Of a DNA stretch of 64,000 bases, positions 9,628 to 57,136 are shown one piece after another; within the stretch, counting starts at the first letter, position 1; every line of letters begins with the position of its first letter. Source of the stretch: Squalus acanthias (taxonomy: Eukaryota). The position numbers and the translations under genes were made by a program. The stretch covers positions 122,142,001-122,206,000 of the forward strand of contig CM059431.1 of assembly GCA_030390025.1 (NCBI GenBank). Direction: 5' to 3'. The notes below the pieces were generated by a model. It was not told where the DNA came from and did no database searches. It was given only the letters and a program-made list of their open reading frames with translations.

Positions 9628-10540
9628 TTCTTTTTTTAAATTTGCTCATGGGATATGGACAACGCTGGCAAGGCCACATTTATTATATATCTCTAGTTGC
9701 CCTGAGAAGGTGTGATGGCCCTTCTTCTTGAGCCTCTGCAATCCTTGTGGTGATGATTCTTCAACAATACTGTTAGGTACGGAATTCCAGGATTTTGATC
9801 TCGAAATGATGGAAGAACAGAGATATATGTCAAAATCAGGATGGTCCGTGACTTCGAGGTGATGCTTTTCCCATGATATTGCTGCTGCTTTCCTTCTTGA
9901 TAGAGGTAGTGAGCTGGGAGGGGCTGTTGATGTAATCTTGTTGAGTTGCTGCAACGCATCCTATAGATTATACATACCACAGCTACAGTGTACTGGTGAT
10001 GGAGGGATTGGATTTTGAGTCCAGTGGCAGGATCAACAATCAAGCAGACTGCTTTGCCCTGGTTGTTGTTTAGCTTCTTGAGTGCTGTTACAGCTGCACC
10101 TATCGAGATGAGTGGTGAGTATTCCATCGCACTCCTGACTTGAGCCTTGTAGATAGTGGAGAGGCTTCGAGGGATTAGGAGGTGATCCACTCATTACAGG
10201 GTACCCAACTTCTGCCCTGTTCTTGAAGCCGCAGTGTTGATATAGCCGAACTTGTTAAGTCCCTGGTCAATGGTGGTCCCCAACATTTTGATAGTGGTTG
10301 ACTCAGCAATGGTGGTGCCATTGAAGGTCAGGGGAGAGGGTTGGACATTTTCTTGTAGGCAATAATTTCGCACTGCAGGGCATGAATGTTAATGCCACTT
10401 GTGAGCTCAAACCTGGAAGTTGTTTAAGTCCTGGTTTAGGCCTGGCATGAGCTGATCCATCAATGGAAATGTTCTGAATGGAGCTGAATGCTATGGAATC
10501 ATAAGCAAGCAGTCCCAATCCTGACCTTATGATTGAAGAA
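9628..10540 (-). mobile_element. LINE family A (CR1/L2-group RT), old 3' fragment
   Basis: LSTIYKAQVRSAMEYSPL and the same 3' tail as the 11003-12336 copy. Confidence 0.88.
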
Positions 10541-11002
10541 AATAAAGTATTTTCATGTGTTGTTTCCATTTCTGGATTTTTGAGAGTTGCAATTTCAGTT
10601 TTTGTTCCTCAGTCCAAAAATGCAAATTCCTCTGTGTGTTCCTCTCTCTTTGTTTTGGAAGATGAACAGGAGGATATGAGGAGGGAGGACGGAGGAAGGG
10701 CAGGTCCTTTTATGCCACAGGCAGCCATCCTTCATCAAATATCAGCATCTACTGACCTAGGCACTGCTACCTAGGTATGTCTGAGGAGATCTTCCTTCAC
10801 AGTTCAATTTTTGTTCCACACCCTAAACTTCACTCCCTTTCCATTGATACCATACCGCTCCCCAGCTATTCATTCAGACTGAATCAGGTCATGTGAAATC
10901 TTGACAACCTGTTTGACTCAGAGCTGAGCTTTAAAACCAACATTCTGTCCACCATCAAGTCTGTCTATTCCCACTTGCACAATATTAGCTGTCACTGTTT
11001 CT

Positions 11003-12336
11003 AAGAAGATGGTTGTGGTGGTTGGAGGCCGATCATCTCAGTCCCAGGACATCGCTGCAGGAGTACCTCAGGGCAGTGTCCTAGGCCCAACCAATTTCAG
11101 CTGCTTCATCAAATAACTTCCCTCCAGCATAAGTCAGAAGTGGGGATGTTCGCTGATGACTGCACAGTGTTCAGTGCCATTCGCAACTCCTCAGATAATG
11201 AAGCAGTCCATGCCCCCATGCAGCAAGACCTGGACGACATTCAGACTTGGGCTGATAAGTGGCAGGTAACATTCACGCCACACTCGTGCCAGGCAATGAC
11301 TATCTCCAACAAGCGAGTGTCTAACCATCACCCCTTGACATTCAATGGCATTACCATCACGGAGTCCCCCACCATCAATATCCTGGGGGTCACCATTGAC
11401 CAGAAACTTACCTGGACCAGCCACATAAATATTGTGTCTACAAGGGCAGGTCAGAGGCTGGGTATTCTGCGGCGAGTGTCTCACCTCCTGACTCCCCAAA
11501 GCCTTTCCACCATCTACAAGGCACAAGTCAGGAGTGTGATGGAATACTCTCCACTTGCCTGGATGAGTGTAGCTCCAACAACACTCAAGAAGCTCGACAC
11601 CATCCAAGTCAAAGCAGCCCACTTGATTGGCACCCCATCCACCACCTTAAACATTCACTCTCTCCACCACTGGCGCACCGTGACTGCAGTGTGTACTATC
11701 TACAAGATGCACTGCAGTAACTCGCCAAGGCTTCTTCGGCAGCACCTCCCAAACCCGCGACCTCTACCACTTACGAAGGACAAGGGCAGCAGGCGCATGG
11801 GAACGCCACCACCTCCAATTTCCCCTCCAAGTCACACACCATCCTGACTTGGAAGTATATCGCCATTCCTTCATCATTGCTGGGTCAAAATCCTGGAACT
11901 CTCTCCCTAACAGCACAGTGGGAGTACCTTCACCACACGGACTGCAGCGTTTCAAGAAGGCGGCTCACCACCACCTTCTCAAGGGCAACTAGGGATGGGC
12001 AATAAATGCTGGCCTTGCCAACAATGCCCACATCCCATAGAAACATAGAAACATAGAATCTAGGAGCAGGAGTAGGCCATTCGGCCCGTCGAGCCTGCTC
12101 CACCATTCAATACGATCATGGCTGATCATCCAAATCCAGTACCCTGTCCCTGCTTTAATCCCCACAGTACACATATCCCACCCTACCCCCGTAACCCCAC
12201 GTATTTAATTCCCCCTAACATATCCCATCCTATCCCCATAACCCCACATATTTAATCCCCCCCTAACACTAAGGGTCAATTTTTATCATAGCCAAATCAA
12301 CCTAACCTGCACATTTTTGAACGAATAAAAAAAAAA
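11003..12336 (+). mobile_element. LINE family A, 5'-truncated, RT C-terminal half
   Basis: [10 protein letters not shown] and MFADDCTVF (ORF 11140-11847), 3' UTR, A-tail at 12327-12336. Confidence 0.93.
12039..12317 (-). mobile_element. HE1-like SINE 3' part with CR1-derived tail, inserted in the LINE A tail
   Basis: Minus strand reads ATGTGCAGGTTAGGTTGA...GGCCGAATGGCCTACTCCTGCTCCT...(CTATGTTT)n. It interrupts the LINE tail CCCACATCCCAT/GAACGAATAAAA. Confidence 0.72.
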
Positions 12337-20278: not shown

Positions 20279-23200
20279 ACTGGATAGCGTCAGTTCATTA
20301 GCTCGGAAATAAATTAAAAAGCAGGACCTCAAATGTGGTAATCTCAGGATTACTCCCAGTGCCACGTGCTAGCGAGAGCAGAAATAGGAGAATAGACCAG
20401 ATGAATGCATGGCTGGAGAGATGGTGTAGGAGGGAGGGATTTAAATTCCTGAGGCATTGGGACCGATTTTGGGAAAGGTGGGACCTGTACAAGCTGGACG
20501 GATTACACCTCTGCAGAACCGGGACCAATATCCTCGCAGGGGGGTTTGCTAGTGCTGTTGGGAAGGATTTAAACTAGTTTGTTAGGGGGCTGGGAACCTA
20601 AGTGTGGGCCCAGAATGGAGAGAAACAAAGCTGAAAGTGCAAGTTAGAAAAGTAGTCAGCAAAGCTAGAAGGGAGCAGAAACAAAGGCCAACAGTAAAGA
20701 GGGTCAAAGTGCAGAAAAATACTAAACAGGCAAAGTTGAAGGCACTTTATCTAAATGCACGTAGCATTCGCGATATGGTGGATGAATTAATAGCACTAAT
20801 AGAAGTAAATGGGTATGATGTAATTACCATTACAGAGACATGGTTGCAGGGTAACCAAAGCTGGGAACTGAATGTTCCAGGGTACTCAACATTCAGGAAG
20901 GACAGACAAAAAGGAAAAGGAGGTGGCGTAGCGCTGTTAATAAGGGATGAGATCGGTATGGTAGAGATAAAAGATCTTGGCTCGGCAGATCGTGATCTAG
21001 AACTGGAATCAGTTTGGGTGGAGCTAAGAAAGAGAAAAGGGCGGAAAACATTGGTGGGAGTTGTGTATAGACCACCAAACAGTGGTGGTAATGTAGGGCA
21101 CAGTATCAATCAAGAAATTAGAAGTGCATGTAACAAGGGCAATACGGTAATCATGGGGGACTTTAATCTACATATTGACTGGGCAAATCAAATTACCACT
21201 AATGGTGTGGAGGACGAATTTTTGGAATGCATGCGAGATGGTTTCCTGGATCAGTATGTGGAGGAACCAGCCAGGGAACAGGCTATTCTGGATCTGGTAC
21301 TGTGTAATGAGAAAGGGCTAATCAATAATCTTGTGGTAAAGGGACCTTTAGGGACAAGTGACCATAATATGATTGAATTTTACATTATGTTTGAGAGTGA
21401 TGTAGTCCAATCTGAAACTAAGGTCTTCAATCTAAACAGAGGAAACTACAAGGGTATGAGGGACTAGTTGGCCATGGTAGATTGGGAGGCTACACTAAAA
21501 GGTATGAAGGTGGACATAAAATGGCTAACATTCAAGGAAATAATGCATAATTTGCAACAAACATATATTCCTCTAGGGCATAAAAACCCAAAAGGAAAAG
21601 TGATCCAACCATGGCTAACAAAAGAAATTAAAGCTCGTATTAAGTCAAAGGAGGAAGCTCATAAAGTTGCCAGAAAAAGCGGCCAGTCTGAGGATTGGGA
21701 TCTTTTTAGAAATCAGCAAAGGGGAACCAAGAAATTGATAAAGAAAGGGAAAATGGATTATGAGCACAAACTAGCGAAAAATATAAAAACAGATTGTAAA
21801 AGCTTCTATAGGTATGTGAAAAGAAAAAGACTGGTGAAGTTAAATGTAGGTCCTTTACAGTCAGAGATGGGAGAATTTATAATGGGGAATGAGGAAATGG
21901 CTGAGAAATTAAATAAATACTTTGTTTCTGTCTTCACGGAGGAAGACACAAAAAAACTCCCAGAAATACGAGAAAACCAAGGGTGTGGCAAGAATGAGGA
22001 ACTTAAAGAAATTATTATTAGTAAAAAAACAGTACTAGCAAAATTAATGGGACTAAAAGTCGGTAAATCCCGGGTATGGACCAGATGACCTACATCCTCG
22101 GGTTTTGAAAGAGGTGGCCATTGGGATAGTGGACGCATTGGTTGTCAACTTCCAAAATTCTATAGATTCTGGAACGGTTCCTGCAGATTGGAGGATAGCA
22201 AATGTAACCCCACTATTTAAGAAAGGAGGGAGAGAGAAAACGGGGAACTGCAGACCTGTTAGCCTCACATCAGTAGATGGGAAAATGCTGGAATCTATTA
22301 TAAAGGATGCAATAACTGGGCACTTAGAAACTAATAGTAAGATTGGACAGAGTTAGCATGGATTTATGAAAGGGAAATCCTGTTTAACAAACCTATTGAA
22401 GTTATTTAAGGACGTAACTAGTGGAGTAGACAAAGGGGAACTGGTAGATGTGGCGTATTTGGATTTTCAGAAGGCCTTCGATAAGGTCGCACACAAGAGG
22501 TTGGTGAACAAAATTAGGGCACATGGAATTGGGGTAATATACTAGCATGGATTGAGAATTGGTTAACAGACAGAAAACAAAGAGTAGGGATAAATGGGTC
22601 TTTTTCAGGATGGCAGGCTGTGACTAGTGGGGTACCGCAAGGATCAGTGCTTGGGCCCCAGCTATTCACAATCTATATCAATGATTTGGATGAGGTGACT
22701 AAATGTAACATTTCCAAATTTGCTGATGATACAAAGCTAGGTGGCAGTGTTAGTTGTGAAGAGGATGTGAAGAGGCATCAAGGGGACTCGTCAGGCTCAG
22801 TGAGTGGGCGAGAACATGGCAGATGGAATATAATGTGGATAAATGCAAAGTTATCCACTTTGGTAGAAAAAACAGAAAGGCAGAGTATTTCCTAAATGGT
22901 GAAAGATTGAGGAATGCAGATGCTCAAAGGGACCTGGGTGTCCTTGTACATGAGTCACTGAGAGTGAATGTGCAGGTGCAGCAAGCCATTAGGAAGGCAC
23001 ATGGTATGCTTGCCTTCATTACAAGAGGATTTGAGTACAGGAGTAAAGAAGTCTTACTCCAATTATATAGGGCCTTGGTGAGACCACACCTGGAGTACTG
23101 TGTACAATTTTGTTGTCCTTACCTAAGGAAGGATATACTTGCCATAAAGAGAGTGCAACGAAGGTTTACGAGATTGATTCCTGGGATGGCAGGACTGTCG

Positions 23201-23655
23201 TATGAGAAGAGTTTGAATAAACTAGGCATGTGCTCTCTTTGAATTCAGAATAATGAGAGGGGATCTCATTGAAGCACACAAAATTATTATAGGGCTTGAT
23301 AGGGTGGATGCTAGGAGAATGTTTCCCTTGGCTGGGGAGTCCAGAACCAGGGGCCACAGTCTCAGGATAAAAGTTAGGCCATGCAGGACTGAGATGAGAA
23401 GAAATTTCTTACACAGAGGGTGGTGAATCTTTGGAATTCTCTACCCCAGAGGACTGTGGAGGCTCAGTCATTGGGTATATTCAAAACAGAAGTTGATAGA
23501 TTTCTGACTAGTAAGGGCATCAAGGGATATGGCGAGAGGGCCGGTGAATGGAGTTGAGGCAGAAGATCAGCCATGATCTCATTGAATGGCGGAGCAGGCT
23601 CGAAGGGCCGAATGGCCTACTCCTGCTCCTATTTTTTACGTTCTTATGTTCTTAT
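20279..23655 (+). mobile_element. CR1 LINE: end of ORF1 (SGNH esterase-like) plus full-length disrupted ORF2 (APE + RT)
   Basis: ORF1 tail DGLHL. APE motifs YLNARSI, ITETW, VYRPP, GDFN, SDH. RT motifs [10 protein letters not shown] and KFADDTKL. (TTCTTATG)n tail. Probable TSD TCTTGCATT (20270-20278, 23656-23664). Confidence 0.95.
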
Positions 23656-24504
23656 TCTTGCATTGGCACCTGAACAGTGCTGGCCCCAATGATATGACCA
23701 GTCCTATATGTTTTCCTTAAGACTGAACACGTTAAGGGCATAAGAAAAGTAAAGAATGAGAAGTAATTTGATTCATCAAGACCACACCTTCTAATTTTAC
23801 TTAATGCCATATCATGTCAACAGAACAAGACCAATTATGTTCCAAAGGACATTTGATCATTTGCCAGTACACTGAACCTGACAAATTTCAATAATTTTAT
23901 AATCAAATATTCATTCAACACTTTTTAGAATAAATTGTTTCTCTCATTAATTTTTCTCTAACAATTTTCTATTCTCCCCTCCCCTCCCCTCATTACCTGA
24001 GGCCACTGCCGTACAGCTCCACCACTGCCAAGTACGGTCTTGTTTTGGGATTCTTTGACCATTTATTTGTGAAAATGACTTGGGCATGATTTATGTCAGA
24101 ATGTGTTATTTTAGCAAAAGCTTGCCAAAAGGAGGTTAGCTTTCCAAGACAACTCCATGCTGTGTTTTGGACCCATAAGCAGACAAATGGTAATTTAAAA
24201 GCAAGATGGGAAATTGTTTCTCAGACACCTGAGCAGTGAATAATTGTAGTTGTTAGTCAGAGAGACATCCAACGCTTTGTTATTGGAACCCGATTTTAAT
24301 GTCTGTGGGGCTGTGAGAGATACTTTTAAAAATCAGGTTGTTGCCACCAAGACCAATCAAGCAGCAGAAGGCCGCAAAAGGAACAACTACTATGCTGGGC
24401 CATGTTGCAGGATGCAAAGAGATTTTGCTTTTAAGTTGAGTTCCATGACCTGCAAGAATGGATAAGCATTCACACCTTCTTTATTTTTGTAACAGTATAG
24501 CTCT

Positions 24505-27832: not shown

Positions 27833-28156
27833 TAGCTCTGGAGTCAGGTTCATGTCAGGCTTTGCACGTAGCACCGTGAGACCTCTCGGGAGGCAGTCTC
27901 ACACAACTTGCAGAGAGCCGGCACAGGCTCGATGGGCTGAATGGTCTTCTTCCGTGCTGTAACCATTGTATAACTTGTCATCGATGACGACGAACACCTT
28001 GCTAAGGCCATCCCCACGCCTCCACTACTCGCCTTCAAGCAGCCGCCTAACCTCAAAAGTACCATCGTCCGCAGCAAATTACCCAGCTGTCAGGAGAACA
28101 GCGACCACGACACCACACAACCCTGCCACGGCAACCTCTGCAAGACATGCCAGACC

Positions 28157-28546
28157 ATGAACACAGATACTGTCATCACACGTGAGGACACTACCCACCA
28201 GGTACATGTAACATACTCATGTGACTCGGCCAACGTTGTCTACCTGATACGTTGCAGGAAAGGATGCCCCAGAGCATGGTACATCGGCGAGACCATGAAG
28301 ACACTGAGACAACGTATGAACGGACACCGCGCAACAATCGCCAGGCAGGATAGTTGCCTTCCAGTCGGGGAACACTTCAGCAGTCAAGGGCATTCAGCCT
28401 CGGATCTGCGGGTTAGCGTTCTCCAAGGCGGCCTTCGAGACACACGACAACGCAAAATCATCGAGCAGAAACTGATAGCCAAGTTCCGCACTCATGAGGA
28501 CGGCCTCAATAGGGATATCAGGTTCATGTCACGCTACAGAACGTGA
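28157..28546 (+). pseudogene. Penelope GIY-YIG endonuclease domain
   Basis: CDSANVVYLIRC...WYIGET...LRQRMNGHR...PVGEHF...EQKLI...GLN. Confidence 0.92.
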
Positions 28547-28814
28547 CTTGACATCGTTGTCTGTCTTTCCAGTTTTTAAAAAACAAACACAAAAAAACAA
28601 ACCTAAAAAACAAACCCCAAAAAGACAGAGAGAGTGGAAGGGATATGGAGAGAGGTCTGCTGCAGACAGCAGGATTTGACACGTTGGACCCCCTGGGACA
28701 CATCTCATTGTCTTGGCTGTGCTCTTGGTGTGTCTTTGATGTAAGGAAAGATTGTATCTCTGCAGTATCTGTGTTTATATTCTGTGAACTTTTGTAGATT
28801 CACTCATTGTAACT

Positions 28815-28854
28815 TTACCTGAAGAAGGGGCAGGATAGCTCTGAAAGCTTGTAA
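28815..28854 (+). ncRNA. Minimal type I hammerhead ribozyme (Penelope-associated)
   Basis: TTAC-CTGAAGA-A-GGGGC(AGGATA)GCTCT-GAAA-GCTT-GTAA: core boxes, stem II with G-U pairs, stem I TTAC/GTAA, palindromic AAGCTT in place of stem III. Confidence 0.72.
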
Positions 28855-29439
28855 TTTTAAATAAATCTGTTGGACTATAACCTGGTGTTGTGCGACTTCT
28901 CATCATTAAATGGTGGAGCAGGCTCGAGGTGCCAAATGGCCTGCTCCTGCACCTATTTCTTATGTTCTTATGAACAATTGTCAATAGACCCCACAAAAAT
29001 GTGTGTAAGGGTGAGGAGCACAATTCTCTTCACCTTGCTCCTGATACCAACAAATCTGTTCTTCATTTACAATCATGTACGAGGGACTTGGGTGATTGTT
29101 TTCATTTGGTTGGTGACCTCCATTCATTAACTTTTACTTGAAGATGGCCTTTAGCCACAAATAGGACCTCTCTTCTTTGGTGCCCATCCCACAGCAGGAG
29201 CTCTAAATCTTTAGCATCAGATGGAGTAATATTGGCTATATGTCTCTGCTATGCCATTGTCAATGATAACAGTCCATGCTGCTGGCAGGGAACTTCATCT
29301 GCCAACAGTGCAAGTAGGAAATTTTGTTATGTGCTGCCCACACTTTTCCAACCAATATTTTAATATAGACTATTAGTGGGCCAGGGCCTCACCAGCTATA
29401 TATACTCTTTAAAACTGCCTTTAATTAGTATGCTTTCCT

Positions 29440-33654: not shown

Positions 33655-35684
33655 GGGCTAAAAATTCGGGTGCTTTGCGTCATCCGTTACCGTCAAAATG
33701 TAGCGAAAAGATGATGGCCGCCGCTCTTTCGGAAGTCCGGCCGTGTTGCCGATAAGAGTGATGGCCCTGCAAATTTAAATTTGGGAGAGTTAACGTCATT
33801 CAGCATGCAACACCGACTTAATATCACCTCAGCTAACTTGGACAGACAATATCCGTGAAGAGAGAAACAGAGTTGCTGTCTCAGGTTGAGGTGCTGTCTG
33901 ACCTGTTGAGTATTTCCAGCATTTTAAGCTTTTATTTCAGATTTACAGCATTCACTTGCAGAGGGAAGAGGAAGACACAGAAGAGAAGGAAACAGAAGAG
34001 GAGGAAGCAGAAGAGGAAGAAGCAGAAGAGAAGGAACCAGAAGAGGAAGACACTGAAGAGGTGGAAGGAGATGAAGAGGAAGCAGAAGGAAGGATGCAAC
34101 CCAGACAGCCCCTTTCTGGCATATTCGGGATGGAATCATTCGCCTGTGGTACCAGTGACCACAACCCTAATTCCACTTTCAACATTAGTCCCACACCTTA
34201 CCTTCCCTCTGTTACTGACCATCACAGCATTCTCTTGGCCACATTGCTGAAATAAAAGCCGCCACAAAGCAAACTGTCCAATCCAACTTTATACATCTAT
34301 TCATCCAATATGACATAAAAAAATCAACTCATCACCCGTATGCATTCCCTTCGTGACTGTCTTGTGTGTGTTTTGCCTATCCTACTAATGTCAAGCAGTG
34401 CTACCCTAGTGGCTGCAGCATGGCTGGAGGAAGGGTGCTGACTTTCAGTGGGGGACACTGCAGATAGCCTTGCTGGTTGAGCTTGATGAGCTGGTGGCTG
34501 GGAGTGTCAAATCAAGTGACAGTGTTAGTTGCTTCTTCTTCTTCTTCTTCTTCTTCTTCTTCTTCTTCACTTTCCTCTCCCTCTCTTTGATCACCCACTG
34601 GCTGAGCAGGCTGCATTTCTTGGGTGTGTGAAATGAGGAAGGCATAAGGGTGGAGTTATGGAGAGGGGAGGGCGGGAAAACAGGAGGTACATGTGAGAAG
34701 GAGGATAATGTACAGGGATACCAGCATCTTGTATCCTTTCAGCCCTGCCGCTGGCCAAGGGCTCAGCATTGCCCCTGCTAAGAATGGCCAGCACCATCTC
34801 CTCCAAGGGGTTGAGGTGAATCTAGGAATGGGAGGTGTGCCTCGTATTTGGTACAGATTGTTGGTTGGTGAGTGATTGGCGGGGGTAGGAGTCATGCATT
34901 GAGAAGTGTGTGAGGCTAGTAATGCAGTTGGTAGGAGATGGCTTTTGAAGATGCATTCACTGACCTTGACCACTGGTTAGAGGTCATGAAGCTTCTTGGG
35001 GCACTGGAGCCTGGTGGTGGGGCGACACTGCTGGCAGTGACGGCCTCAGTGATGTGGTCCCACATTGTTCTTTCTGGAGAGCCACCAGGCCCCTGTGTGT
35101 AGAGGACCTCTCTTGCAGTGTTGACCCCCTGCACAAAGCTGGAGTGCTGCATGCGAGACCCTAGGTGCCCCTTCCCTGGCTTGCTGAGTCGTTTGTGTTT
35201 GTGTGGAAGCACTTTTCCCATTTTTTGACTTGCAGAAGGGAATTCAGCTTTAAGAGCTGAAGACTCCCATTTGGTAATGTATTTTCAAATGTTATTTTTT
35301 TTTGTAAAAGGCAGTACAGCTGTAAGGGCTGATAACTGCAATTTTTTGCTTCATTTTTATTTTGATAAGTTCAGAAAGCATTGCCCTTTTAAGCAAACGA
35401 CAATGCATTGCCCTTCTAATATCCCACAGTGCCTGGTGAACTCATAGCCTCGCTTCCAGAGGCTGTTGGAAGATGCAACGCCGCTTCTGGACACCACATT
35501 TGGCACTGATGCCAGGAGTAACGCCACCAGGAGGGCGTTACACGGTGAGTTTAGCACTGGGCTAAAAATATTTAGTCCCCAGCGCAAATTTTTCTCTCCT
35601 ACCAGCGCGACCATTTTCAGCGGCCGTTAACCCGAGGCCGCGGTGACATCGGCAACTTTTGTGTTGCAGTCCAATTTCTAGGCC
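33655..35684 (-). mobile_element. Internally deleted Harbinger element, same family as 15845-18001
   Basis: Ends GGGCTAAAAATTCGG / CCAATTTCTAGGCC. 33958-35220 aligns in reverse with about 16260-17415. Contains (TTC)n near 34532-34568. Confidence 0.82.
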
Positions 35685-35792
35685 TCAGACTTTAGTATCA
35701 TGCCTAACATACTATCACCCCATCTCCAATCTCCTTTTTCACTCCAGAGTCCTTGAACATATTGTTGTCTGCATCCATCCGTCACTCCCACA

Positions 35793-36043
35793 ATCTGTCT
35801 GTCTCTCTGTCTCTCTCTGTGTCTCTCTCTCTTTCTCTGTCTCTCTCTCTGTCGCTGTCTCTCTCTGTCTCTCTATCGCTGTCTCTCTCTGTCTCTCTGC
35901 CTCTCTGTCTCTCTCCCTCTCTGTCTCTGTCTGTCTCTGTCTCTGCCTCTGTCTCTCCATCTCTATGTCTCTCTGTATCTCTCTGTCTCTCTCTCTGTCT
36001 CTGTCTCTCTCTCTCTGTCTCTCTCTCTCTCTCTGGCTCTCAC

Positions 36044-36082
<39 letters not shown>

Positions 36083-36439
36083 TTCCCTCTCTGGTTCTCT
36101 CTCTCTCTCTCTGGCTCTCTCTCTCTCTCTGGCTCTCTCTATCTCTCTCTATATAGCTCTCTGTCTCTGTCTCTCTCTCTCTCTGTTTCTCTGTCTCTCT
36201 CCCTGCCTCTCTCTCTCTTTCTCTGTCTCTCTATCTTTCTGTCCCTCTCTCTCTGTCTCTCTCTCTCTGTCTCTCTCTCTCACACTCTCTCTCTCAAACT
36301 CTCTCTCTCACACTCTCTTTCTCACACTCTCTCTCTCTCTCTCTCTCATACTCTCTCTCTCTCTCACACTCTCTCTCTCTCACACTCTCTCTCTCCGTCT
36401 CTCTCTGTCTCTCACTGTCTCTCTCTCTGTCTTGCTCTC

Positions 36440-36470
<31 letters not shown>
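35793..36470. repeat. Long imperfect (CT)n/(CTGTCT)n microsatellite, about 680 bp
   Basis: Direct inspection. Confidence 0.97.
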
Positions 36471-36471
<1 letters not shown>

Positions 36472-37649
36472 AACCATGGCTAACAAAATAATTCAAATCT
36501 AGTATTAAGTCAAAGGAGGAAGCTTATAAAGTTGCCAGAAAAAGCAGCCAGCCTGAGGATTGGGATATTTTTAGAAATCAGCAAAGGGGGACCAAGAAAT
36601 TGATAAAGAAAGGGAAAATGGAATATGAGCACAAACTAGCGAAAAATATAAAAACGGATTGTAAAAGCTCCTATAGGTATGTGAAAAGGAAAAGACTGGT
36701 GAAGGTAAATGCAGGTCCTTTACAGTCAGAGACGGGAAAATTTATAATGCGGAATGAGGAAATGGCTGGGAGAAATTAAATAAATACTTTGTTTCTGTCT
36801 TCACGGATGAAGACACAAAAAAACTCCCAGAAATATGAGAAAACCAAGGGTGTGGAGAGAATGAGGAACTTAAAGAAATTATTATTAGTAAAAAAACAGT
36901 ACTAGCAAAATTAATGGGACTAAAAGTCGATAAATCCCAAGGACCGGATGACCTGCATCCTAGGGTTTTGAAAGAGGTGGCCATTGAGATAGTGGATGCG
37001 TTGGTTGTCATCTTCCAAAATTCTATAGATTCTGGAATGGTTCCTGCAGATTGGAGGATAGAAAATGTAACCCCACTATTTAAGAAAGGAGGGAGAGAGA
37101 AAACGGGGATCGATAGACCTGTTAGCCTCAAATCAGTTGTTGGGAAAATGCTGGAATCTATTATAAAGGATGCAATAACTGGGCATTAGAAACTAATAGT
37201 AAGATTGGGCAGAGTCAACATGGATTTATGAAAGGAAAATCCTGTTTAACAAACCTATTGGAGTTCTTTGAGGATGTAACTAGTGGAGTAGACAAAGGGG
37301 AACCGGTAGATGTGGTGTATTTGGATTTTCAGAAGGCCTTCGATAAGGTCCCATGCAAGAGGTTGGTGAACAAAATTAGGGCACATGGAATTGGGGGTAA
37401 TATACTAGCATGGATTGAGAATTGGTTAACAGACAGAAAACAAAGAGTAGGGATAAACGAGTCTTTTTCAGGATGGCAGGCTGTGACTAGTATATTCAAA
37501 ACAGAAGTCGATAGATTTCTGACTAGTAAGGGCATCAAGGGATATGGCGATAGGGCCGGTGAATGGAATTGAGGCAGAAGATCATCCATGATCTCATTGA
37601 ATGGCGGAGCAGGCTCAAAGGGCCGAATGGCCTACTCCTGTTCCTATTT
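36471..37649 (+). mobile_element. CR1 fragment, close relative of 20279-23655, with internal deletion
   Basis: Matches 21606-22628, then jumps to 23476-23655 at GTGACTAGT/ATATTCAAAAC. Confidence 0.93.
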
Positions 37650-38139
37650 CTTATGTTCTTATGTTCTTAATTCCCACAGCACTGAAATGGCCCAAAACAA
37701 AAGCCATGAACAACATTCCCTGTGACTATGATCATTGTGCATTATCTAGCCTTGTCTTTTTGAACCTCTCTGTATACTTTGACATGCTTAAATCCTTCTA
37801 CCTCTCCATTTCCCTCTCCTCCTGAAAGACCATCATTTGACCAAACATTTGGTCACCCCTATTAATATTTATTTATTTGCTTGTTGTCCATATTGGCACT
37901 AAGTTTAATACAATGGTAGCATACTCCTGTTAAACCGTTTTAAATTAAACAACTGCCTTATGGTGCAGATCAGAATTTAATGTAAGTATGTGAAGCAGTG
38001 CATTAAAAATAGACAATTAAACAGTAAACCTGTGCAATTTGTATCTGTGACCAAACATTAAGCATTGGGGAATCTGACCCCAATAGTTTCATGTGCAAGT
38101 CATTGGAATTTTCCTTTCACACAAACAGAGCTTGCTGCT

Positions 38140-42599: not shown

Positions 42600-43050
42600 T
42601 TAATGAAATAGTTTCAATGCTGTCTCTAGATTATACCCAGTGACTGATCATTTTATAATTTAGTGCACACTTTCTCAGATCATTTTATTTTGAATTTAAA
42701 ACCATATACTACTTATCCATATGCAAGCAATCTTTCCCCTTTAATAATCCTGCTCTGACTTTAGCTGCTCTTCATGAACCCACTATAGTTTCTTTGTATG
42801 GACCCTCGAGTTATCAGACTATTGCTGAAACAATAAGCACTTTAACTATCATAAAGTTAAAGTTAATGTAACTCTGCAGACAATGAATAACACTCCTGTA
42901 AACTAGATGTAGCAATATTTGTCTTATGCAGCTATTTGTGTTCCCTCAGAGAGGCCCAGAACAAAGTTAAGCTTACCTTGTTTTATTTACTGTGTATCTG
43001 TGCGAGGCTAACTGTATTTACTGATTGAGTACCGATAGTAATTAATGTGA

Positions 43051-43238
43051 TGATGTGGAGATGCCGGTGTTGGACTGGGGTGGACAAAAGTGAGAAGTCG
43101 CACAACACCAGGTTATAGTCCAACAGCTTTATTTGAAATCACAAGCTTTCGGAGCGCTGCTCCTTCGTCAGCGCTCCGAAAGCTTGTGATTTCAAATAAA
43201 GCTGTTGCACTATAACCTGGTGTTGTGCGACTTCTCAC
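43051..43238 (-). mobile_element. 188-bp fold-back Penelope terminal-repeat insertion containing a hammerhead core
   Basis: 12-bp TSD TAATTAATGTGA (43039-43050, 43239-43250). 70-bp inverted arms 43090-43159 / 43169-43238 with one mismatch. Arm homologous to 28838-28902. Confidence 0.92.
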
Positions 43239-45059
43239 TAATTAATGTGAGGTAATCCTGCTATGACATAGGATGTGGTCTTTACTAACAAGTTAAAACA
43301 TAAGGGTGTATTAAGCAGGTAGATGTTACATATAAATTGATCCCGTTAGAAACTGCAATTTCTCAACCAGATTAAAATTAGATGGTTGTAATAGTCAGTG
43401 ATTGATTTATACAGTGACTCTTTAACATTGACTTCACAGTAAGTAAATTCTGCAGACAAGGATAAATAGTTGCTGTCGTAACAAGGCATTGTCTCTTGAT
43501 GATTATGAAACTTTGTGGAGTTACATCAAAAAAAAGCAGCCATTCTTTTTCATATTCTCTATGCAACTGAGGCCAGATGATCGTAATATACATACTTGTT
43601 ATTTATTTGCTTGAGTTACAGAGTAGAATTAATGCTCTTGAAGAAATCACATCAGGACAAGAAAGGAGATGCTTTTGTAATAATGTTTTTTTTATTCATT
43701 TGCAATATGCATATCTAGTTTGGGGGGAAAAAAATTAATGTAATGCTGGTTTCTATAAACTAGACCAGTAGATTGCATTTGCAAGTTTAACATTATTGCT
43801 CCACAGGCTATTTGTTTAAAATACATGCACTGGTAATGAAAGATATCATGATAGTAAAATTGAACATTTCTTGGAGTGAACTTTAACTATTGATTTCAGG
43901 AGGTATAGGTAGAGTAGGCTTCCTAAGTACGGTTGTTGAAATGTGACCCTTTGCAATCATGTTCAATTCATCTGCTACAATAATAAAAGATCGTTAATCA
44001 TTTTCAGTAGCTGTCATGGAGGTCTTGAATTTAATGGCAAATGTATCATTTACCCAGGCATATTTATAGCAGGTGGGATTAACTCTATACAGTACCCTCG
44101 GTTTAAATATAACGTGCGTGGCGAACAGATTGGCCAAATGTCACTTTAAATACATGCCACTGTCAATGTGCATTATTTGAACATCACTCCATTTCTTTTC
44201 TTCTGTTGGCAAGTAGAAAAGTGCTTCTTGCAAACATGGCAAATTACCAACATTGCCCGCAGGGTGAATACATTTGTCATGTTGCAAATGACATTGTCTT
44301 ACACAAAACAATTTTTGGAATGTTTTACAAAACCAACACTCCTTTGAGGTACTGGGAGCAATAAAGAGGCTTCTGGAGTGTAAACCTGTTAAGCAGCAAT
44401 ATGCCTTCAGTAAGTGACAGGCATTATGACCAGTAAAGGTCGTATTCCGCAAAATTTGTGATTACATTGCTAAAATATACACCAAATGGAAATAGCGGGA
44501 CCTTCAATCTTTGTGGCATGATGCTAAATTTAGATACATAAAAATATAACTGAAATTGGCTTGCTGTTTTGAACTGAAATTGAATTTTTTTTTTGTCCAT
44601 TTAAAAGCTTCTCGTTTAATAGTTGCTAGGTTACATGCAAGTTTGAACACAACACACAAGGTCAAGTTATGTTACATCTGTATGGGCCTTGAAACAACAG
44701 AAGCTGACTGCCTCAAAGCACATTTGAAATATGACATGCCAATAGTAATTTAGAGCCTATGGAGCACAACAGATGTCCCACTTACTCATTTTAGTTAACA
44801 AATGCAGTTATAACAGCAGAAGACTGTTGTGTTTTTGATGGGTTCAGAATACTGCTGCTCTTCACTCCTTATGCTGGATAGATTTAAGCTGCCGTACCCG
44901 CTAGTAAAAATAGTCTTTATGCCAATTACAGAAGCTTTTTTATAAGTTATTATTCATGGATACCTCTACACACAGCATAAGATTTTCTAGTAATTAACTG
45001 TAAGTGATTTCTAGATAAAATTATGTTAATAACATCGTAACCTTCAATCTTTTGGGCAG

Positions 45060-48469: not shown

Positions 48470-49937
48470 TTTTTTAATTTGTTTATGGGATGTGGGCATC
48501 GCTGACAAGGCCAGCATTTATTGCCCATTCCTAATTGCCCTTGAGAAGGTGGTGGTGAGCCGCCTTCTTGAACCGCTGCAGTCTGTGCGGTGAAGGTACT
48601 CCCACAGTGTTGTTAGGTAGGGAGTTCCAGGATTTTGACCCAGCAACGATGAAGGATCGGCGAAATACTTCTAAGTCAGGATAGTTTGTGACTTGGAGGG
48701 GAACTTGGAGGTGGTGGTGTTCCCATGCGTCTGCTGCCCTTGTCCTTCTAGGTGGAAGAGGACGCGGGTTTGGGAGAACATAACATAAGAACATAAGAAA
48801 TAGGAGCAGGAGTAGACCATACGGCTCCTCAATAAGATCATGGCTGATCATCGACATTAACTCCACTTTCCCGCCTCATCTCCATATAACTTGATTCCCC
48901 ATGAGTCCAAAAATCTATCTATCTCGGCCTTGAATGTACGCAAAGACTCAGCATTCACAACCCTCTGGGGCAGAGATTTCCAGAAATTCACAACCATCTG
49001 AGTGAAGAAATTTCTCCTCATCTTAAATGGCCAAACCCTTATCCTGAGACTATGCCCCCTAAATCTAGACACTCCAGCTATGGGAAACAACCTCTCAGCA
49101 TCTACTCTGTCAATCCCCTTCAGAATCTTGTATATTTCAATGAGATCACCTCGCATTCTTCTAAAGTTTCAGCTGTGGCTCAGTTAGTAGCACACTACCA
49201 AAGAAGGTGCTGCCGAAGGAGCCTTGGCGAGTTGCTGCTCTGCATCTTGTAGATGGTACACACTGCAGCCACGGTACACCGATGGTGGAGGGAGTGAATG
49301 TTTAAGGTGGTGGATGGGGTGCCAATCAAGCGGGCTGCTTTGTCCTGGATGGTGTCGAGCTTCTTGAGTGTTGTTGGAGCTGCACTCATCCATGCAAGTG
49401 GAGAGTATTCCATCACACTCCTTACTTGTGCCTTGTAGATGGTGGAAAGGCTTTGGGGAGTCAGGAGGTGAGACACTCGCCACAGAATACCTAGCCTCTG
49501 ACCTGCTGTTGTTGCCACAGTATTTATGTGGCTGGCCCAGTTAAGTTTCTGGTCAATGGTGACCCCCCAGGATATTGATGGTGGGGGATTCGGCGATGGT
49601 AATGCCGTTGAATTTCAAGGGGAGGTGGTTAGACTCTCGCTTGTTGGAGATAGTCATTGCCTGGCACTTCTGTGGCACGAATGTTACCTGCCACTTATCA
49701 GCCCAAGCCTGAACATCGTCCAGGTCTTGTTGCATGTGGGCATGGACTGCTTCATTATCTGAGGAGTTGTGAATGGCACTGAACACTGTACAGTCATCAG
49801 CGAACATCCCCATTTCTGACCTTATGTTGGAGGGAAGGTAATTGATGAAGCAGCTGAAGATGGTTGGGCCTAGGACACTGCCCTGAGGAACTCCTGCAGT
49901 GATGTCCTGGGGCTGTCATGATTGACCTTCAACCACT
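48470..49937 (-). mobile_element. LINE family A, 5'-truncated, interrupted by a CR1 fragment
   Basis: MGMFADDCTVF (49553-49813), LSTIYKAQVRS, 3' UTR and T-run near 48466-48476. Confidence 0.92.
48778..49165 (-). mobile_element. CR1 3' fragment nested in LINE A
   Basis: MRGDLIEIYKILKG...RGHSLRI and (AAGAACAT)n tail. Confidence 0.9.
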
Positions 49938-51135: not shown

Positions 51136-51555
51136 TGACAGAGGTGAGAGTAGGATGCACAAAGAGACCTTAATGTTTACATAATTACACGGTGAGGAGA
51201 CTGTCCAACTAATAGTATAGCTTGTATTCAGTCCCAAGTATAACATTTCCATTTGTTGCAGATATCAATGTGGGGATACATTTTTGGAGATTCTGAGGGG
51301 AGGGTGAACAGCCAGAGGCCGTGGTCCATATCGGTATCAACAACACAGTTAGAAATAAGGATGAGGTCCTGCAGGCAGATTTTGGGAGCTAGGAAAGAGA
51401 TTAAAAAACAGGACCTCAAAGGTAGTAATCTCCGGATTACTCCTGGTGCCACGAGCTAGTGAGTTTAGAAATAGAAGGATAGAGCAGATGACTGCGTGGC
51501 TGGAAAGATGGTGCAGGAGGTAGGGCTTTAGATTCCTGGGACATTGGGACCGGTT

Positions 51556-51724
51556 AAGAACATAAGAACATAAGAAATAAGAGCAGGAGGAGGTCATACG
51601 GCCCCTCGAGCCTGCTCTGCCATTCAATAAGATCATGGCTGATCATCGACCTCAACTCCACTCTCCCGCCCGATCTCCATATCCCTTGATTCCCCTAGAG
51701 TCCAATAATCTATCTCAGTCTTGA
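51556..51724 (-). mobile_element. Short CR1 3' end inserted in ORF1 of the host CR1
   Basis: GGTT duplication (51552-51555, 51725-51728) and (AAGAACAT)n tail. Confidence 0.88.
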
Positions 51725-52421
51725 GGTTCTGGGGGAGGTGGAACCTGTACAGGCCGGACGGTTTTCACCTCAACAGAGCTGGGACCAATGTCCTCGTGGG
51801 CGGGGCGGGGGGGGGGTGTTGCTAGTGCTGTTGGGGAGGGTTTAAATTAATTTGGCAGGGGGGTGGGCACCAGGATGTAGCATTAGAAAGGAGAAACAAG
51901 GTGCACAAAGGATTGGGAGAGACAGATAGCACTAGAGTAAGAAATAGTACGGTATTAGGTAGGGTCAGACTAAGAGAGAATACAAGAAGGACTAAGATAG
52001 GTTTACAGTGCATGTGTGTGAATGCACAAAAGGTGGTAAATAAGGTTGGTGAGCTGCAGGCGCAAATAGCCACATGGCAATATGATGTCATGGCGATATG
52101 GAGACCTGACTCAATAAAGGGCAGGATTGGGTACTAAATATTCTTGGAGATAAGGTGTTAAGGAAAGCTAGGGCAGGAAAGAAAGGAGCTGGGGTGACAG
52201 TATTGATTAAGGAGAATATTAGTGCTGGACAGAGGGGATGTCCTGGAGGGGTCAAGGACAGAATCTATTTGGTTAGAGTTGAGCAACAATAGAGGTGCCA
52301 TTACACTACTAGGTATATTCTATAGGCTGCCAACTAGTGTGAAGGATATAGAGGAGCAAACTTGCAGGGAAATTACAGAGAGGTGCTAGAACGATAGAGT
52401 AGTGATAATGTGGGACTTCAA

Positions 52422-55215
52422 CAATAGAAACATTGAAACATTGGGGCAGGAGTAGGCCATTCGGACCTTCATGGCTGATCCTCTATCTCAATACCAAATT
52501 CCCGCTCTCTCCCCATACAACCTTGATGCCTTTTTTGTCTAGAAATCTATCTATCTCCTTCTTAAATATATTCAGTGACTTGGCCTCCATAGCCTTCTGT
52601 GGTAGAGAATTCCACAGGTTCACCACCCTCTGAGTGAAGAAATGTCACCTCATCTCAGTCCTAAATGTCCTACCCCATATCCTGAGACTGTGACCTCTCG
52701 TTCTAGACCCCCCCAGCCAGGGGAAACATCCTCCCTGCATCCAGGCTGTCTAGCCCTGTCAGTATTTTATACGTTTCAATGAGATCCCCTCTCATTCTTC
52801 TAAACTCGAGTGAATACAGGCCTAGTCGACCAATCCCTCCTCGTACAACAGTCCTGCCATCCCAGGAATCAGTCTGGTGAACCTTTGCTGCACTCCCTCT
52901 ATGGCAAGTATAACCTTTCTTAGGTAAGGAGACCAAAACTGCACACAGTACTCCAGGTGTGGTCTCACCAAGGTCCTGTACAACTGTAGTAAGACATCCT
53001 TGCTCCTGTACTCAAATCCTCTTGCAATGAAGGCCAACATACCATTTGCCTTCCTAACTGCTTGCTGCACCTGCATGTTTGCTTTCAGTGACTGGTGTAC
53101 AAGGACACCCAGGTCCCTCTGTACATTAACATTTCCCAATCTAGCACCATTTAAATAATACTCTACCTTTCTGTTTTTCCTAAGGAAGTGGATAACTTCA
53201 CATTTATCCACGTTATACTGCATCTGCCACATATTTGCCCACTCACTCAACTTGTCTAAATCGCCTTGAAGCCACTTTGCATTCACCTCACAACTCACAA
53301 TCCCACCTAGTTTCGTGTCGTCAGCAAACTTGGAAATATTGGGGGGAAAATTCAGTTGGTTGCGCCTCCCGTTAGCGCCTTAAGAGGGCGCTAATGGGGT
53401 GCAAAGCAGCTAGCGCCCGGGCGCGGCGAAGTTTGCGCCGCTCGCGAAATTAACTAGACATTTTGCGGCGGCACTAAACACTACCGCCACGATCTCCTGC
53501 GCCGGCAGATCGTGATGTCAGACGAGTGTGCTACGCCCCGGTATCGCCCCAGAGCGGATATTGAGTGGCGCCCCCTGCCTTACCGCCTGACGCTAGCAAC
53601 GACAGGTTGATAGGAGCGTTCTTCTGTCATGAAGGAAAAGGTGGAGCGCTATTTAAAGGTGACCGCTTCCTGCCTTTTATTGTTGGTGCCATTTTTGAAC
53701 TACGCATTCTGAGAGAGAGTGAGAGAGACTTCTGGAGAGATTCAACGTTGTGTGAAGGAGTTTTGGGTACTGAGCAGCACTTTGCAGGTTCATTTTGATT
53801 TGCCATTCCTTGTATCGATTTAGAAGAGACTGTGGGGGCTGCACTCTGAGCTCTTTCCCTGGTACTCTCCATTGTTCTTTCCAGCAGATTTGATGTGCAG
53901 GTCTCTCCAGGCCGAGATTCAAGGCTGCAATGAGCAGGATGTGGATGGAAAGCAAGATCAACCATCCCCTTTAAGAACTGGCCCGTGCCATTGTGTGTGT
54001 GTTCCATTGCTGACTGACATTACATGAGCTTCGCCAGCGCTCTGAGTTAGCGCCTCACTCCTCGGCCTTTGCGCCCTAAGACAGGTGTGCAGCGCCTGAT
54101 TTAGAGCTCCAATCACCTCCCGGGGCGTTAAAAGTGAAGTTTCCAGTCAGCGGCGATAATTAGCGCCAGGCGCTAATCTTTGCGCCCGGACGATATTTGC
54201 GCCCCAAATGGGGCGCGACTGAATTTTTCCCCCATTATATTTGGTTCCCTCATCCAAATCATTGATATATAATGTGAATAGCTGGGGCCCAAGCATTGAT
54301 CCCTGCGGTACCCCACTAGTCACCGCCTGCCACCCTGAAAAAGACCCATTTATTCATATTCTCTGTTTCCTGTCTGTTAAGCAATTTTCAATCCATGCCA
54401 GTATATTACCCCCAATCCCATGTGCTTTAATTTTGCACACTAACCTCTTATGTGGGACTTTATCAAAGGCCTTCTGAAAATTCAAATACACCACATCCAC
54501 TGGTTCTCCCTTATCTATTTTACCTGTTACATCCTCAAAAAACTCCAGTAGGTTTGTCAAACACGATTTCCCTTTCATAAATCCATGTTGACTTTGTCTA
54601 ATCCCGTTGATATTTTCTAAGTGTCCTGTTATCACATCCTTTATAAAGACTCGAGCATTTTCCCTACTACTGATGTTAGGCCAACCGGTCTGTAGTTCCC
54701 TGTTTTCTCTCTCCCTCATTTTTTAAATAGTGGGGTTACATTTGCCACCCTCCAATCTGCAGGAACTATTCCATAATCTATAGAATTTTGGAAGATGACA
54801 ACCAATGCATCCATTAGTTCCATGGCTACCTCTTTTAGTACTCTGGGATGCAGATTATCAGGCCCTGGGAATTTATCAGCTTTCAGTCCCATTAATTACT
54901 CCAGCACTATTTTTTTACTAATGCTAATTTCTTTTAATTCCTCCTTCTCACTAGACCCTTGGTTCCCTAGCATTTCTGGGATGTTATTTGTGTCCTCTTC
55001 CGTGAAGATAGAACCAAAGTATTTGTTTAATTGCTCAGCTATTTCCTTGTTCCCCATTATAAATTCTCCCGTTTCTGACTGTAAGGGACCTACATTTGTC
55101 TTCACTAATCTTTTTCTTTTTACATACTTGTAGAAGCTTTTACAATCCGCTTTTATGTTCCTTGCAAGTTTACTCTCATACTCTATTTTTCCCCTCTTAA
55201 TCAATCTCTTGGTCC
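52422..55215 (-). mobile_element. CR1 LINE (RT region) inserted antisense in the host CR1
   Basis: ORFs 54896-55204, 54354-54719 and 52822-53298 are CR1 ORF2 pieces. Tail at 52422-52470. Confidence 0.92.
53341..54233. mobile_element. Harbinger-type MITE (TAGCGCC family), 893 bp
   Basis: GGGGGGAAAATT / AATTTTTCCCCC TIRs, ATT TSD (53338-53340, 54234-54236). Inserted just before the FADD codons of the minus-strand CR1. Confidence 0.93.
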
Positions 55216-57136
55216 TATATCCTAATATAGACTGGGATAGTAATAGTGTAAAGGGCAGAGAGGGAGAAGAATTTCTGAAGTGTGTTCAGGAGAACTATCT
55301 TGATCAGTACGTTTCCAGCTCAATGAGGAAGGAGGCATTGCTGGATCTGGTTCTGGGGAATGAGGTGGGTCAAGTAGAGCAAGAGTCAGTCGGTAACCTT
55401 TAGGGAACAGTGATCACAGTGTCATAAGGTGTAGAGTAGCTATGGAAAAGGACAGGGAAAATCTAGAGTAAAAATACTTAAGTGGAGGAAAGCCAATTTC
55501 AGTAGGTTGAGAATGGATCTGGCCCGGGTAAATTGGAATCAAAGCTTGGCAAGCAAAGCTGTAATCGAACAATGGGCTGCCTTTAAAGAGGAGGTGGTTC
55601 AGGTACAGTCGAGCTACATTCCCACGAAGGGGAAAGGTAGGGCAACCAAAGCCAGAGCTCCCTGGATGACGAAAGAGATAGAGAGTAAGATGAAGCAGAA
55701 AAGGGGGGCTTATGACAGATGTCAGGTTGAGAATACAAGTGAGAACCAGGCTGAATATAAAAAGTTCAGAGGGGAAGTGAAAAAGGAAATAAGAGGGGCA
55801 AAGAGAGAGTATAAGAATAGATTGGCAGCTAGCATAAAAGGGAATTTAAAAGTCTTCTATAGGCATATAAATAGTAAACGGGTAGTAAGAGGAGGGGTGG
55901 GGCCGATTAGGGACCAAAATGGAGACCTACGCATGGAGGCAGAGGGCATGGCTGAGGTACTAAATGAATACTTTGCATCTGTCTTTACCAAGGAAGAAGA
56001 TGCTGCCAAAGTCATAGTGAAAGCGGAGGTAGTTGGGATACTAGATGGAATAAAAATTGATAAGGAGGAGGTACTAGGAAGGCTGGCTGTACTTAAAGTA
56101 GATAAGTTACCAGGACCGGGTGGGATGCATCATCGGATGCTGAGGGAAGTAAAAGTGGAAATTGCGGAGGAACTGGCCATAATCTTCCAATTCTCCTTAG
56201 ATATGGGGGTGGTGCCAGAGGACTGGAGAATTGCAAATGTTACACCCTTGTTCAAAACAGGGTGTAAAGGTAAACCCAGCAACTAGAGACCAGTCAGTTT
56301 AACCATGGTAGTGGGGAAGCTTTAGAAACGATAATCTGGGACAAAATTAACAGTGAATTGGACAAGTGTGGATTAATTAAGGAAAGCCAGCATGGATTTG
56401 TTAAAGGTAAATTGTGTTTAACTAGCTTGATTGAGTTTTTTGATGAGGTGACATAGAGGGTTGATGAGGGCAATGCGGTTGATGTGGTGTCACATGGACT
56501 TCCAAAAGACGTTTGATGAAGTGCCACATATTAGGCTTGCCAGCAAAGTTGAAGCCCATGGAATAAAAGGGACAGTGGCAGCATGGATACAAAATTGGCT
56601 AAGTGACAGGAAACAGAGAGTAGTGGTGAACAGTTGTTTTTCAGACTGGAAGAAGGTATATAGTGGTGTTCACCCGGGGTTGGTACTAGGACCACTGTTT
56701 TTCTTGATGTATATTAATGACTCAGACTTGGGTGTACAGGGTACAATTTCAAAATTTGCAGATGACACAAAACTTGGAAGTATAGTGAACAGTGAGGAGG
56801 ATAGTGATAGACTTCAAGAAGACATAGACAGGCTGGTGGAATGGGCGGACACGTGGCAGATGAAATTTAATGCAGAAAAGTGCGAAGTGTTACATTTTGT
56901 TAGGAAGAACGAGGAGAGGCAATATAAACTAAAGGGTACAATTCTAAAGGGGGTGCATGAACAGAGAACCGGCACGGACTCAATGGGCCAAATGGCCTCC
57001 TTCTGTGGCGTTATGACTTTATGACTCTATGAGAGACCTGGGGGTATATGTGCACAAATCGTTGAAGGTGTCAGGGCAGTTTGAGAAAGTGGTTAAAAAA
57101 GCATATGGGATCCTGGGCTTCATAAATAGAGGCATA

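What the first reader, a model, noticed from the sequence alone, without database searches (positions are those of the whole stretch)
43039..43250. Young 188-bp hairpin insertion with a hammerhead core at its apex and a 12-bp TSD
Seen: 70-bp arms with one mismatch, a 9-nt loop and an exact TSD. The minus strand reads CUGACGA-A-GGAGC(AGC)GCUCC-GAAA-GCUU-GUGA. The inversion point falls at the 5' edge of the CUGA box through a CAG microhomology, replacing the 5' strand of stem I. Known: Penelope insertions often have an inverted 5' segment. Inference: reverse transcription folds back at the ribozyme, producing miRNA-like hairpins or a non-autonomous mini-element.
Basis: partly seen in the sequence, partly recalled or inferred. 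Interest (0 to 1): 0.7.

Follow-up and report, generated by a model that had tools for sequence, protein, structure and literature searches.

The report
Double-primed Penelope retrotransposon hairpin stub
This 188-base hairpin is a real but ordinary stub of a very common Penelope-type jumping gene, likely made afresh when two short DNA copies of the front end of the element's RNA were joined back to back, so it is probably not a self-copying ribozyme element, although such stubs together may record how Penelope elements insert.

Summary
The hairpin, 12-bp target duplication (TSD), hammerhead core and CAG microhomology are all there. It is a head-to-head insertion of a Penelope-like element (PLE) end, a known layout with a one-sided 38-bp tail. 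The family has at least 16,002 copies; 64 of 90 unselected copies are inverted in the same way, with many different apices.

The exact apex occurs 65 times. In 59 examined, the hammerhead core lies on the tailed arm in 22 and on the tail-less arm in 36, so it re-formed independently and is not one replicating mini-element. Those 36 cannot come from simple fold-back.

Breakpoints are not random, but the main stop is not the CUGA edge (4% depart there). It lies 7 nt upstream (22% depart, 14% with an extra C), at an initiator-like site 30 nt after a TATA box.

Best reading: both cut strands prime cDNAs that run off the capped RNA start and are joined by microhomology. The cap and dual-priming steps are inferred, and subfamily B lacks this stop. 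Small RNAs were not testable. This scan has noted such hairpins on other DNA many times.

The parts
43039..43050 (.). Left target-site duplication (12 bp)
   Evidence: Exact repeat of 43239-43250; 53 of 64 inverted family copies have TSDs of 9 bp or more, mode 12
43051..43088 (-). Unpaired 38-bp PLE 'tail'; in full-length copies the ORF start codon follows it directly
   Evidence: the 30-40 bp one-sided tail is described in PMC8557442, PMC3846280, PMC11167929
43089..43171 (-). Tailed arm: pLTR/5'UTR sequence reaching 121 nt from the tail end, 7 nt short of the inferred transcription start
43139..43171 (-). Minimal type I hammerhead core without the 5' strand of stem I; predicted cut would lie between 43143 and 43142; predicted inactive in this copy
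   Evidence: features from PMC4209133 passages; no Rfam hammerhead hit
43169..43171 (.). 3-nt microhomology (CAG) where the two arms are joined
43169..43238 (+). Tail-less arm: second, inverted copy of the same pLTR end, reaching position 109
43239..43250 (.). Right target-site duplication (12 bp)

Best explanation
This is a head-to-head insertion of two short copies of the pLTR/5' end of an endonuclease-bearing Penelope-like retrotransposon, likely made in one event in which both strands of a staggered cut primed separate cDNAs that were then joined through a 3-nt microhomology. SHOWN: family identity, layout, TSD, tail, independent recurrence of the apex, and a sharp arm-end peak 7 nt upstream of CUGA. 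INFERRED steps: (1) the GIY-YIG enzyme cuts the two strands about 12 nt apart. (2) One strand starts reverse transcription just before the ORF's ATG (tailed arm) and the other about 38 nt further 5' (tail-less arm), as the two start sites shown in vitro for the Anolis element. (3) On RNA that begins at the pLTR promoter, each cDNA runs off the capped 5' end after at most 128 or 90 nt and often gains a C opposite the cap. (4) The two 3' ends are trimmed to a microhomology and joined, giving hairpins of up to about 220 bp. The ribozyme is a passenger that lies just inside the RNA start, and the template was uncleaved. The stub is most likely a dead by-product.
For: Family: 16,002 exact tail matches. 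The ORF starts right after the tail in full-length copies (126 matches), with RT (PF00078) and GIY-YIG-type motifs read by eye. Layout: 64 of 90 copies inverted by script, 53 of 64 with TSD of 9 bp or more; about 1,750 short-loop hairpins with many apices. Two cDNAs: the tail-less arm reaches further in 16 of 45 subfamily-A inverted copies and in 36 of 59 exact-apex copies. Some copies carry two different haplotypes on their arms (L047 with three linked differences, L077, L211), and the stem-II loop indel is discordant in 11 of 78. Run-off at a capped start: 17 of 95 arms end exactly at position 128 against 3 at the CUGA edge. Genome-wide departure is 11% at position 127, 22% at 128 and 4% at 129. 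The next base is C in 3,121 of 5,033, and in 13 of 17 in the sample (p 0.007 against 44%). Of 41 arms from 40 'C' loci, the C is untemplated in 12 and templated without a T overlap in 11; L211 is a blunt join of two such ends. The stop matches an initiator 30 nt after TATATAT (sequence). Insert lengths peak at 201-221, against a predicted ceiling near 218-220. Literature: the Anolis PLE nicks and extends both strands, starts at two sites flanking the tail and uses unprocessed RNA (PMC11167929).
Against: Subfamily B shows no stop at its matching TATA/initiator site (87 of 6,295 = 1.4%). 78% of subfamily-A arms that reach position 128 continue past it genome-wide, so many templates start elsewhere (for example the 3' pLTR). 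10 of 41 'C' junctions are equally explained by a T overlap with the partner arm, and 8 have no partner arm. Part of the A/T class is a sequence variant, not a stop, so 22% overstates the stop; 14% (C only) is the safer figure. Arms usually share subfamily variants (6 of 97 discordant against 56 expected at random), which fold-back also predicts. For the window's own copy the tailed arm is the longer one, so fold-back is not excluded for it alone. No RNA 5'-end data were seen.
Confidence: 0.7

Rival explanations
1. Self-priming fold-back: one cDNA stops at or near the hammerhead, folds on a short microhomology and copies itself back.
For: Arms are mostly concordant at variant sites. The apex is a CTG/CAG mini-hairpin. 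The tailed arm is the longer one in 27 of 45 copies and in this copy.
Against: It cannot produce copies whose tail-less arm is longer (16 of 45; 36 of 59) or arms with two haplotypes (L047, L077, L211). The CUGA edge is a minor stop (4%).
Confidence: 0.15
2. A non-autonomous mini-element: the 188-nt hairpin is itself transcribed and copied as a unit.
For: 65 copies share the exact apex. 46 of 53 scorable ones have TSDs of 9 bp or more, 45 of them distinct.
Against: The same apex occurs in both mirror configurations (22, 36 and 1 with both tails of 59) and on several variant backgrounds mirrored in both arms. It is 0.4% of tail copies among very many apices. The hairpin lacks the TATA/initiator, and the window's arm mismatch is private among the 30 aligned.
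Confidence: 0.05
3. Arms end because the RNA was cut by its ribozyme, or because RT stalls at the folded ribozyme.
For: A weak step at the predicted cut: 1.7% one base before, 3.0% at the cut (about half true ends, 16 of 30 loci) and 0.8% one base after. Hazard is raised over the whole 116-130 stretch.
Against: This copy and nearly all others span the cut site intact. Five of the 16 ends at the cut are explained by a TCAC overlap with the partner arm. A stall does not explain the extra C or the sharp drop after position 128.
Confidence: 0.1

Closest known systems
Inverted-pLTR insertions of EN+ Penelope-like elements with a one-sided 30-40 bp tail (PMC8557442 Fig. 2 legend and text; Adineta Pen2a in PMC3846280)
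   Same: Head-to-head inverted 5'-truncated copy, tail on one side only, TSD, hammerhead in the pLTR, TATA and TCACT initiator-like motif in the pLTR
   Different: No ORF between the arms; both arms are very short, and TSDs are about 12 bp (8-10 bp in the Adineta examples). Those papers propose self-priming or leave the mechanism open.
PAc (Poseidon of Anolis carolinensis) in vitro, PMC11167929
   Same: Two RT start sites flanking the tail, about 111-118 nt past the start of hammerhead stem II (113 nt here); both strands nicked and extended; uncleaved RNA used
   Different: Here the ATG follows the tail, whereas in PAc it lies at stem II. The protein here has a CX4CxxC linker (Neptune/Nematis type), which Poseidon lacks. 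The parts I read do not describe the joining of two cDNAs into a hairpin.
Minimal hammerheads of metazoan PLEs (PMC4209133)
   Same: CUGANGA and GAAA boxes, extra base before stem II, G10.1-C11.1 pair, palindromic 15.2-16.2 with no stem III
   Different: Stem I has lost its 5' strand in this copy, and the long hairpin is predicted to bury the core.
L1 twin priming (recalled, not from a call)
   Same: Both target strands prime cDNA, with a microhomology join and an inversion
   Different: L1 gives non-overlapping inverted segments of one RNA. Here both arms copy the same region, giving a palindrome.
Retrozymes (PMC7229834, search listing only)
   Same: Short non-coding repeats carrying type I hammerheads
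   Different: Retrozymes are tandem direct repeats that replicate as their own RNA. This is an inverted by-product with a broken ribozyme.

Membership tests
EN+ Penelope-like element | pLTR linked to one ORF with RT and C-terminal GIY-YIG | tested here: met
   Same pLTR followed by the ORF start and preceded by the EN end (L056); RT PF00078; GIY-YIG-type motif with two internal cysteines read by eye; Pfam gave no EN hit
EN+ Penelope-like element | Inverted 5'-truncated copy with a one-sided 30-40 bp tail | tested here: met
   38-bp tail here; 64 of 90 copies inverted; 58 of 59 exact-apex copies have one tail
EN+ Penelope-like element | Target-site duplication | tested here: met
   12 bp here; 53 of 64 have 9 bp or more. 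Empty site not shown
Neptune/Nematis clade | CX2-5CxxC linker before the EN | tested here: met
   CX4CxxC in L064 and in window 27977-28546; criterion from PMC8557442
Neptune/Nematis clade | Placement on an RT tree | not tested
   No tree was built
Minimal PLE hammerhead | Core boxes, stem II, palindromic 15.2-16.2 | tested here: met
   Sequence 43171-43139
Minimal PLE hammerhead | Stem I | tested here: not met
   Present in parent copies (4 bp); 5' strand replaced in this copy; long hairpin dominates the fold
Minimal PLE hammerhead | Self-cleavage | not testable with these tools
   Only a weak genomic step at the predicted cut
Non-autonomous mini-element / retrozyme | One fixed unit copied from a single origin | tested here: not met
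   Same apex in mirror configurations, 22 vs 36 of 59; a continuum of apices
miRNA / hairpin siRNA precursor | Expressed, processed small RNAs | not testable with these tools
   Only sub-threshold generic hairpin hit MIR8643, 40.8 bits against a cut-off of 135

The most novel reading that the evidence does not exclude
Penelope-like elements integrate by two-ended priming with two RNA molecules. Each cut strand copies its own RNA from one of two start sites, the cDNAs run off the cap, and host end-joining fuses them. The thousands of hairpin stubs are then a base-resolution fossil map of the element's RNA start, cap and occasional ribozyme cut, and they answer how PLE inverted ends and tails form.
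Probability: 0.5. Interest if true: 0.6.

Novelty: new member of a known kind. Interest (0 to 1): 0.38.

Why it matters
The locus itself is one ordinary stub among thousands. The family pattern matters more. How PLEs make inverted ends and tails is stated as open in PMC8557442 and PMC11167929, and the earlier proposal was self-priming. Mirror-image apices, two-haplotype arms and a cap-like extra base give genomic tests that favour dual priming and can be checked directly in the existing in vitro system.

Tried and rejected
Rfam: no hammerhead family hit; the MIR8643 match is a generic hairpin below threshold and was rejected.

The first DNA search returned 40 near-identical hairpins, which looked like a mini-element. 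That was ranking bias, shown by unselected sampling.

RNA: no RNA holder listed; this is no evidence on expression.

Empty site: not shown. Run X5 (same organism, other sample) carries the insertion. Organism E diverges at 43029 into other sequence. One organism-B contig runs 166 letters past 43050, but its letters were not shown.

A transcription-start stop in subfamily B was tested and not found. A stop at the ribozyme cut gave only a weak step. Pfam found no GIY-YIG model hit and PDB had no match.

Paper searches for a shark or elasmobranch description, for twin priming in Penelope and for cap run-off listed nothing that describes this by title or abstract. The library lacks most subscription papers, and supplements were not read.

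Rows left out: of the 100 listed tail matches I fetched the first 90, and 6 of 65 exact-apex loci were not fetched. Duplicated or nested loci (L028, L045, L065, L054, L072, L092) were dropped before the counts, and all but L028 (not in that set). One search missed a few short non-inverted subfamily-A copies.

Full report
Observation. The window has inverted arms at 43089-43159 and 43169-43239 with one mismatch and a 9-nt loop, and an exact 12-nt direct repeat at 43039-43050 and 43239-43250. The fold is far beyond shuffles (z -20.6, 0 of 200). Its stem I lacks the 5' strand UCAC seen in parent copies, so it is predicted inactive. Rfam gave no hammerhead hit. The stretch 43051-43088 is unpaired.

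Identity. The window lies on contig C7 of a 3.7-Gb genome; that the repeat resembles shark repeats is my recall and was not tested. A 27-nt pattern from the unpaired end has 16,002 exact matches. In 126 places that end runs straight into an ATG, and among 30 such loci several continue as a long ORF into an RT domain. Other copies carry the ORF's 3' end upstream of the same repeat (L056, L064), with PF00078, a CX4CxxC linker and a GIY-YIG-type motif read by eye (Pfam gave no EN hit). By the criteria in PMC8557442 (passages) this is an EN+ Penelope-like element of Neptune/Nematis type; no tree was built. The unpaired end is the 30-40 bp tail, and the inverted copy is the known PLE layout (PMC8557442 and PMC3846280, passages).

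How common. Of the first 90 tail matches on contig C1, 64 were inverted by script and four more short ones by eye. 53 of the 64 have TSDs of 9 bp or more, with a mode of 12. The outer ends are fixed and the apex varies; lengths run 135-3378 with a peak at 201-221. A short-loop pattern gave 1,755 and 1,758 matches on the two strands, about 1,750 hairpins, with many apices among the 100 rows listed.

Mini-element test. The exact apex occurs 65 times, and I examined 59. But the hammerhead core is on the tailed arm in 22 and on the tail-less arm in 36, and one copy has both tails. Variants such as C/T/G/A at one site are usually mirrored in both arms. One copied unit cannot have both mirror forms, so this apex re-formed independently through the CAG overlap.

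Fold-back test. A cDNA that folds back can copy only what it already holds. If the tailed arm came first, the other cannot be longer; if the tail-less arm came first, it cannot supply the tail. The tail-less arm reaches further in 16 of 45 subfamily-A inverted copies (13 by 5 nt or more) and in 36 of 59 exact-apex copies. Arms mostly share variants (6 of 97 discordant against 56 expected at random; background 1.6%), which fits either model. However, the stem-II loop indel is discordant in 11 of 78, and L047, L077 and L211 carry linked differences between arms that exist elsewhere as haplotypes. This points to two templates in at least some events. For the window's copy alone fold-back is not excluded.

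Where arms end. In 50 subfamily-A copies (95 arms), 52 of 78 arms at risk end at positions 116-130 from the tail end. 17 end exactly at 128 and 3 at 121, the CUGA edge. Genome-wide, the share that leaves the parent sequence is 4.0% at the CUGA edge (1,214 of 30,289), 11.3% at 127 (2,860 of 25,413), 22.3% at 128 (5,033 of 22,553) and 4.1% at 129 (722 of 17,520). These counts include substitutions, and part of the A/T class at 128 is a sequence variant; C alone is 13.8%.

What position 128 is. It is the A of TCACTTC, 30 nt after the start of TATATAT (sequence). That this is a textbook polymerase II TATA-initiator spacing, and that RTs copy the cap as an extra C, is established knowledge, recalled. 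PMC3846280 notes the same TATA and TCACT pair in a rotifer pLTR. Of 41 arms from 40 loci ending at 128 with C, the C was untemplated in 12, templated without a T overlap in 11, explained by a T overlap in 10, and 8 had no partner arm. L211 is a blunt join of two such ends. Two arms running to 128 predict a ceiling near 218-220 bp, and the observed peak ends at 219-221. Against this reading, subfamily B shows no stop at its matching site (87 of 6,295), and most A arms that reach 128 go past it.

Ribozyme cut. Following a lead from earlier scan notes, I tested the predicted cut. Departures were 1.7% one base before, 3.0% at the site and 0.8% one base after. 14 of 30 loci at the site were substitutions, and five of the 16 true ends share a TCAC overlap with the partner arm. 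This is at most a weak hint of cleaved templates. This copy spans the site intact, in line with PMC11167929, where unprocessed RNA was the main substrate.

Mechanism. PMC11167929 (parts 1-2 of 4 read) showed that an Anolis PLE protein nicks and extends both strands, starts RT at two internal sites that flank the tail, and is predicted to be a dimer. Joined with the data above, the likely path is: a staggered cut of about 12 nt; two cDNAs from the two start sites; run-off at the capped start 7 nt above the hammerhead; trimming to a microhomology; and joining. Here the tailed arm has 121 nt, the tail-less arm 70 nt and the overlap 3 nt, giving 188. The cutting, dual priming, cap copying and joining are inferred; the layout and end distribution are shown.

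Age and allele. The copy is 99% identical to its two closest relatives, and its single arm mismatch is typical of the family. A second sample of the same organism carries it. The empty site was not shown.

Novelty. The layout is known. I found no paper stating dual priming with cap run-off for PLEs in the searches, but the library lacks most subscription papers and I read no supplements, which may bear on this (Fig. S2 of PMC11167929 in particular). PMC4209133 and PMC6155905 were seen as passages and PMC7229834 as a listing. The scan holds 608 findings with these words in at least 41 genomes, several with the same reading; I had reached mine before that call. Verdict: a real, ordinary member of a known kind, whose family offers a useful test of an open mechanistic question.

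Noticed in passing
window 27977-28903 (+): A second, non-inverted copy of the same PLE superfamily: endonuclease end of the ORF (189 aa open), 3'UTR, hammerhead and a tail-less end; subfamily-B-like.
   Followed up: partly
L004, L006, L008, L009, L034, L055 and L161-L190: Tail ends often extend 3-15 nt, sometimes more than 100 nt, into the ORF start, so the tailed RT start is slightly ragged. Several inverted copies contain only the 5' end of the ORF, which fits templates that begin at the 5' pLTR.
   Followed up: partly
stem II loop, element position about 105 (L038, L044, L047, L059, L101, L139, L145, L147): A one-base insertion at the stem-loop border is often on one arm only. It may be an RT error hot spot or a sign of mixed templates.
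   Followed up: partly
subfamilies A, B, C (L082, L064, L039): All keep a TATA-like box 28-31 nt before a TCAC initiator-like site although the sequence between differs, yet only A was shown to stop there; B does not and C was not tested.
   Followed up: partly
L022; L053/L054; L072: One exact-apex copy has tails on both arms; two loci show a PLE stub inserted into or beside another PLE copy.
   Followed up: no
window 1618-2829 (+) and 3473-4183 (-): Two converging ORFs that look like a PIF/Harbinger transposon pair (nuclease and partner); label recalled, not searched.
   Followed up: no
window 9700-12050, 20300-23700, 36500-37700, 48500-49900, 51400-56700: Many LINE fragments (endonuclease and RT ORFs, CR1/L2-like by recall) at 70-97% identity to each other.
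   Followed up: no
window 33950-34088 and 35700-36500: A 15-bp purine-rich tandem repeat and a long (CT)n-type microsatellite.
   Followed up: no
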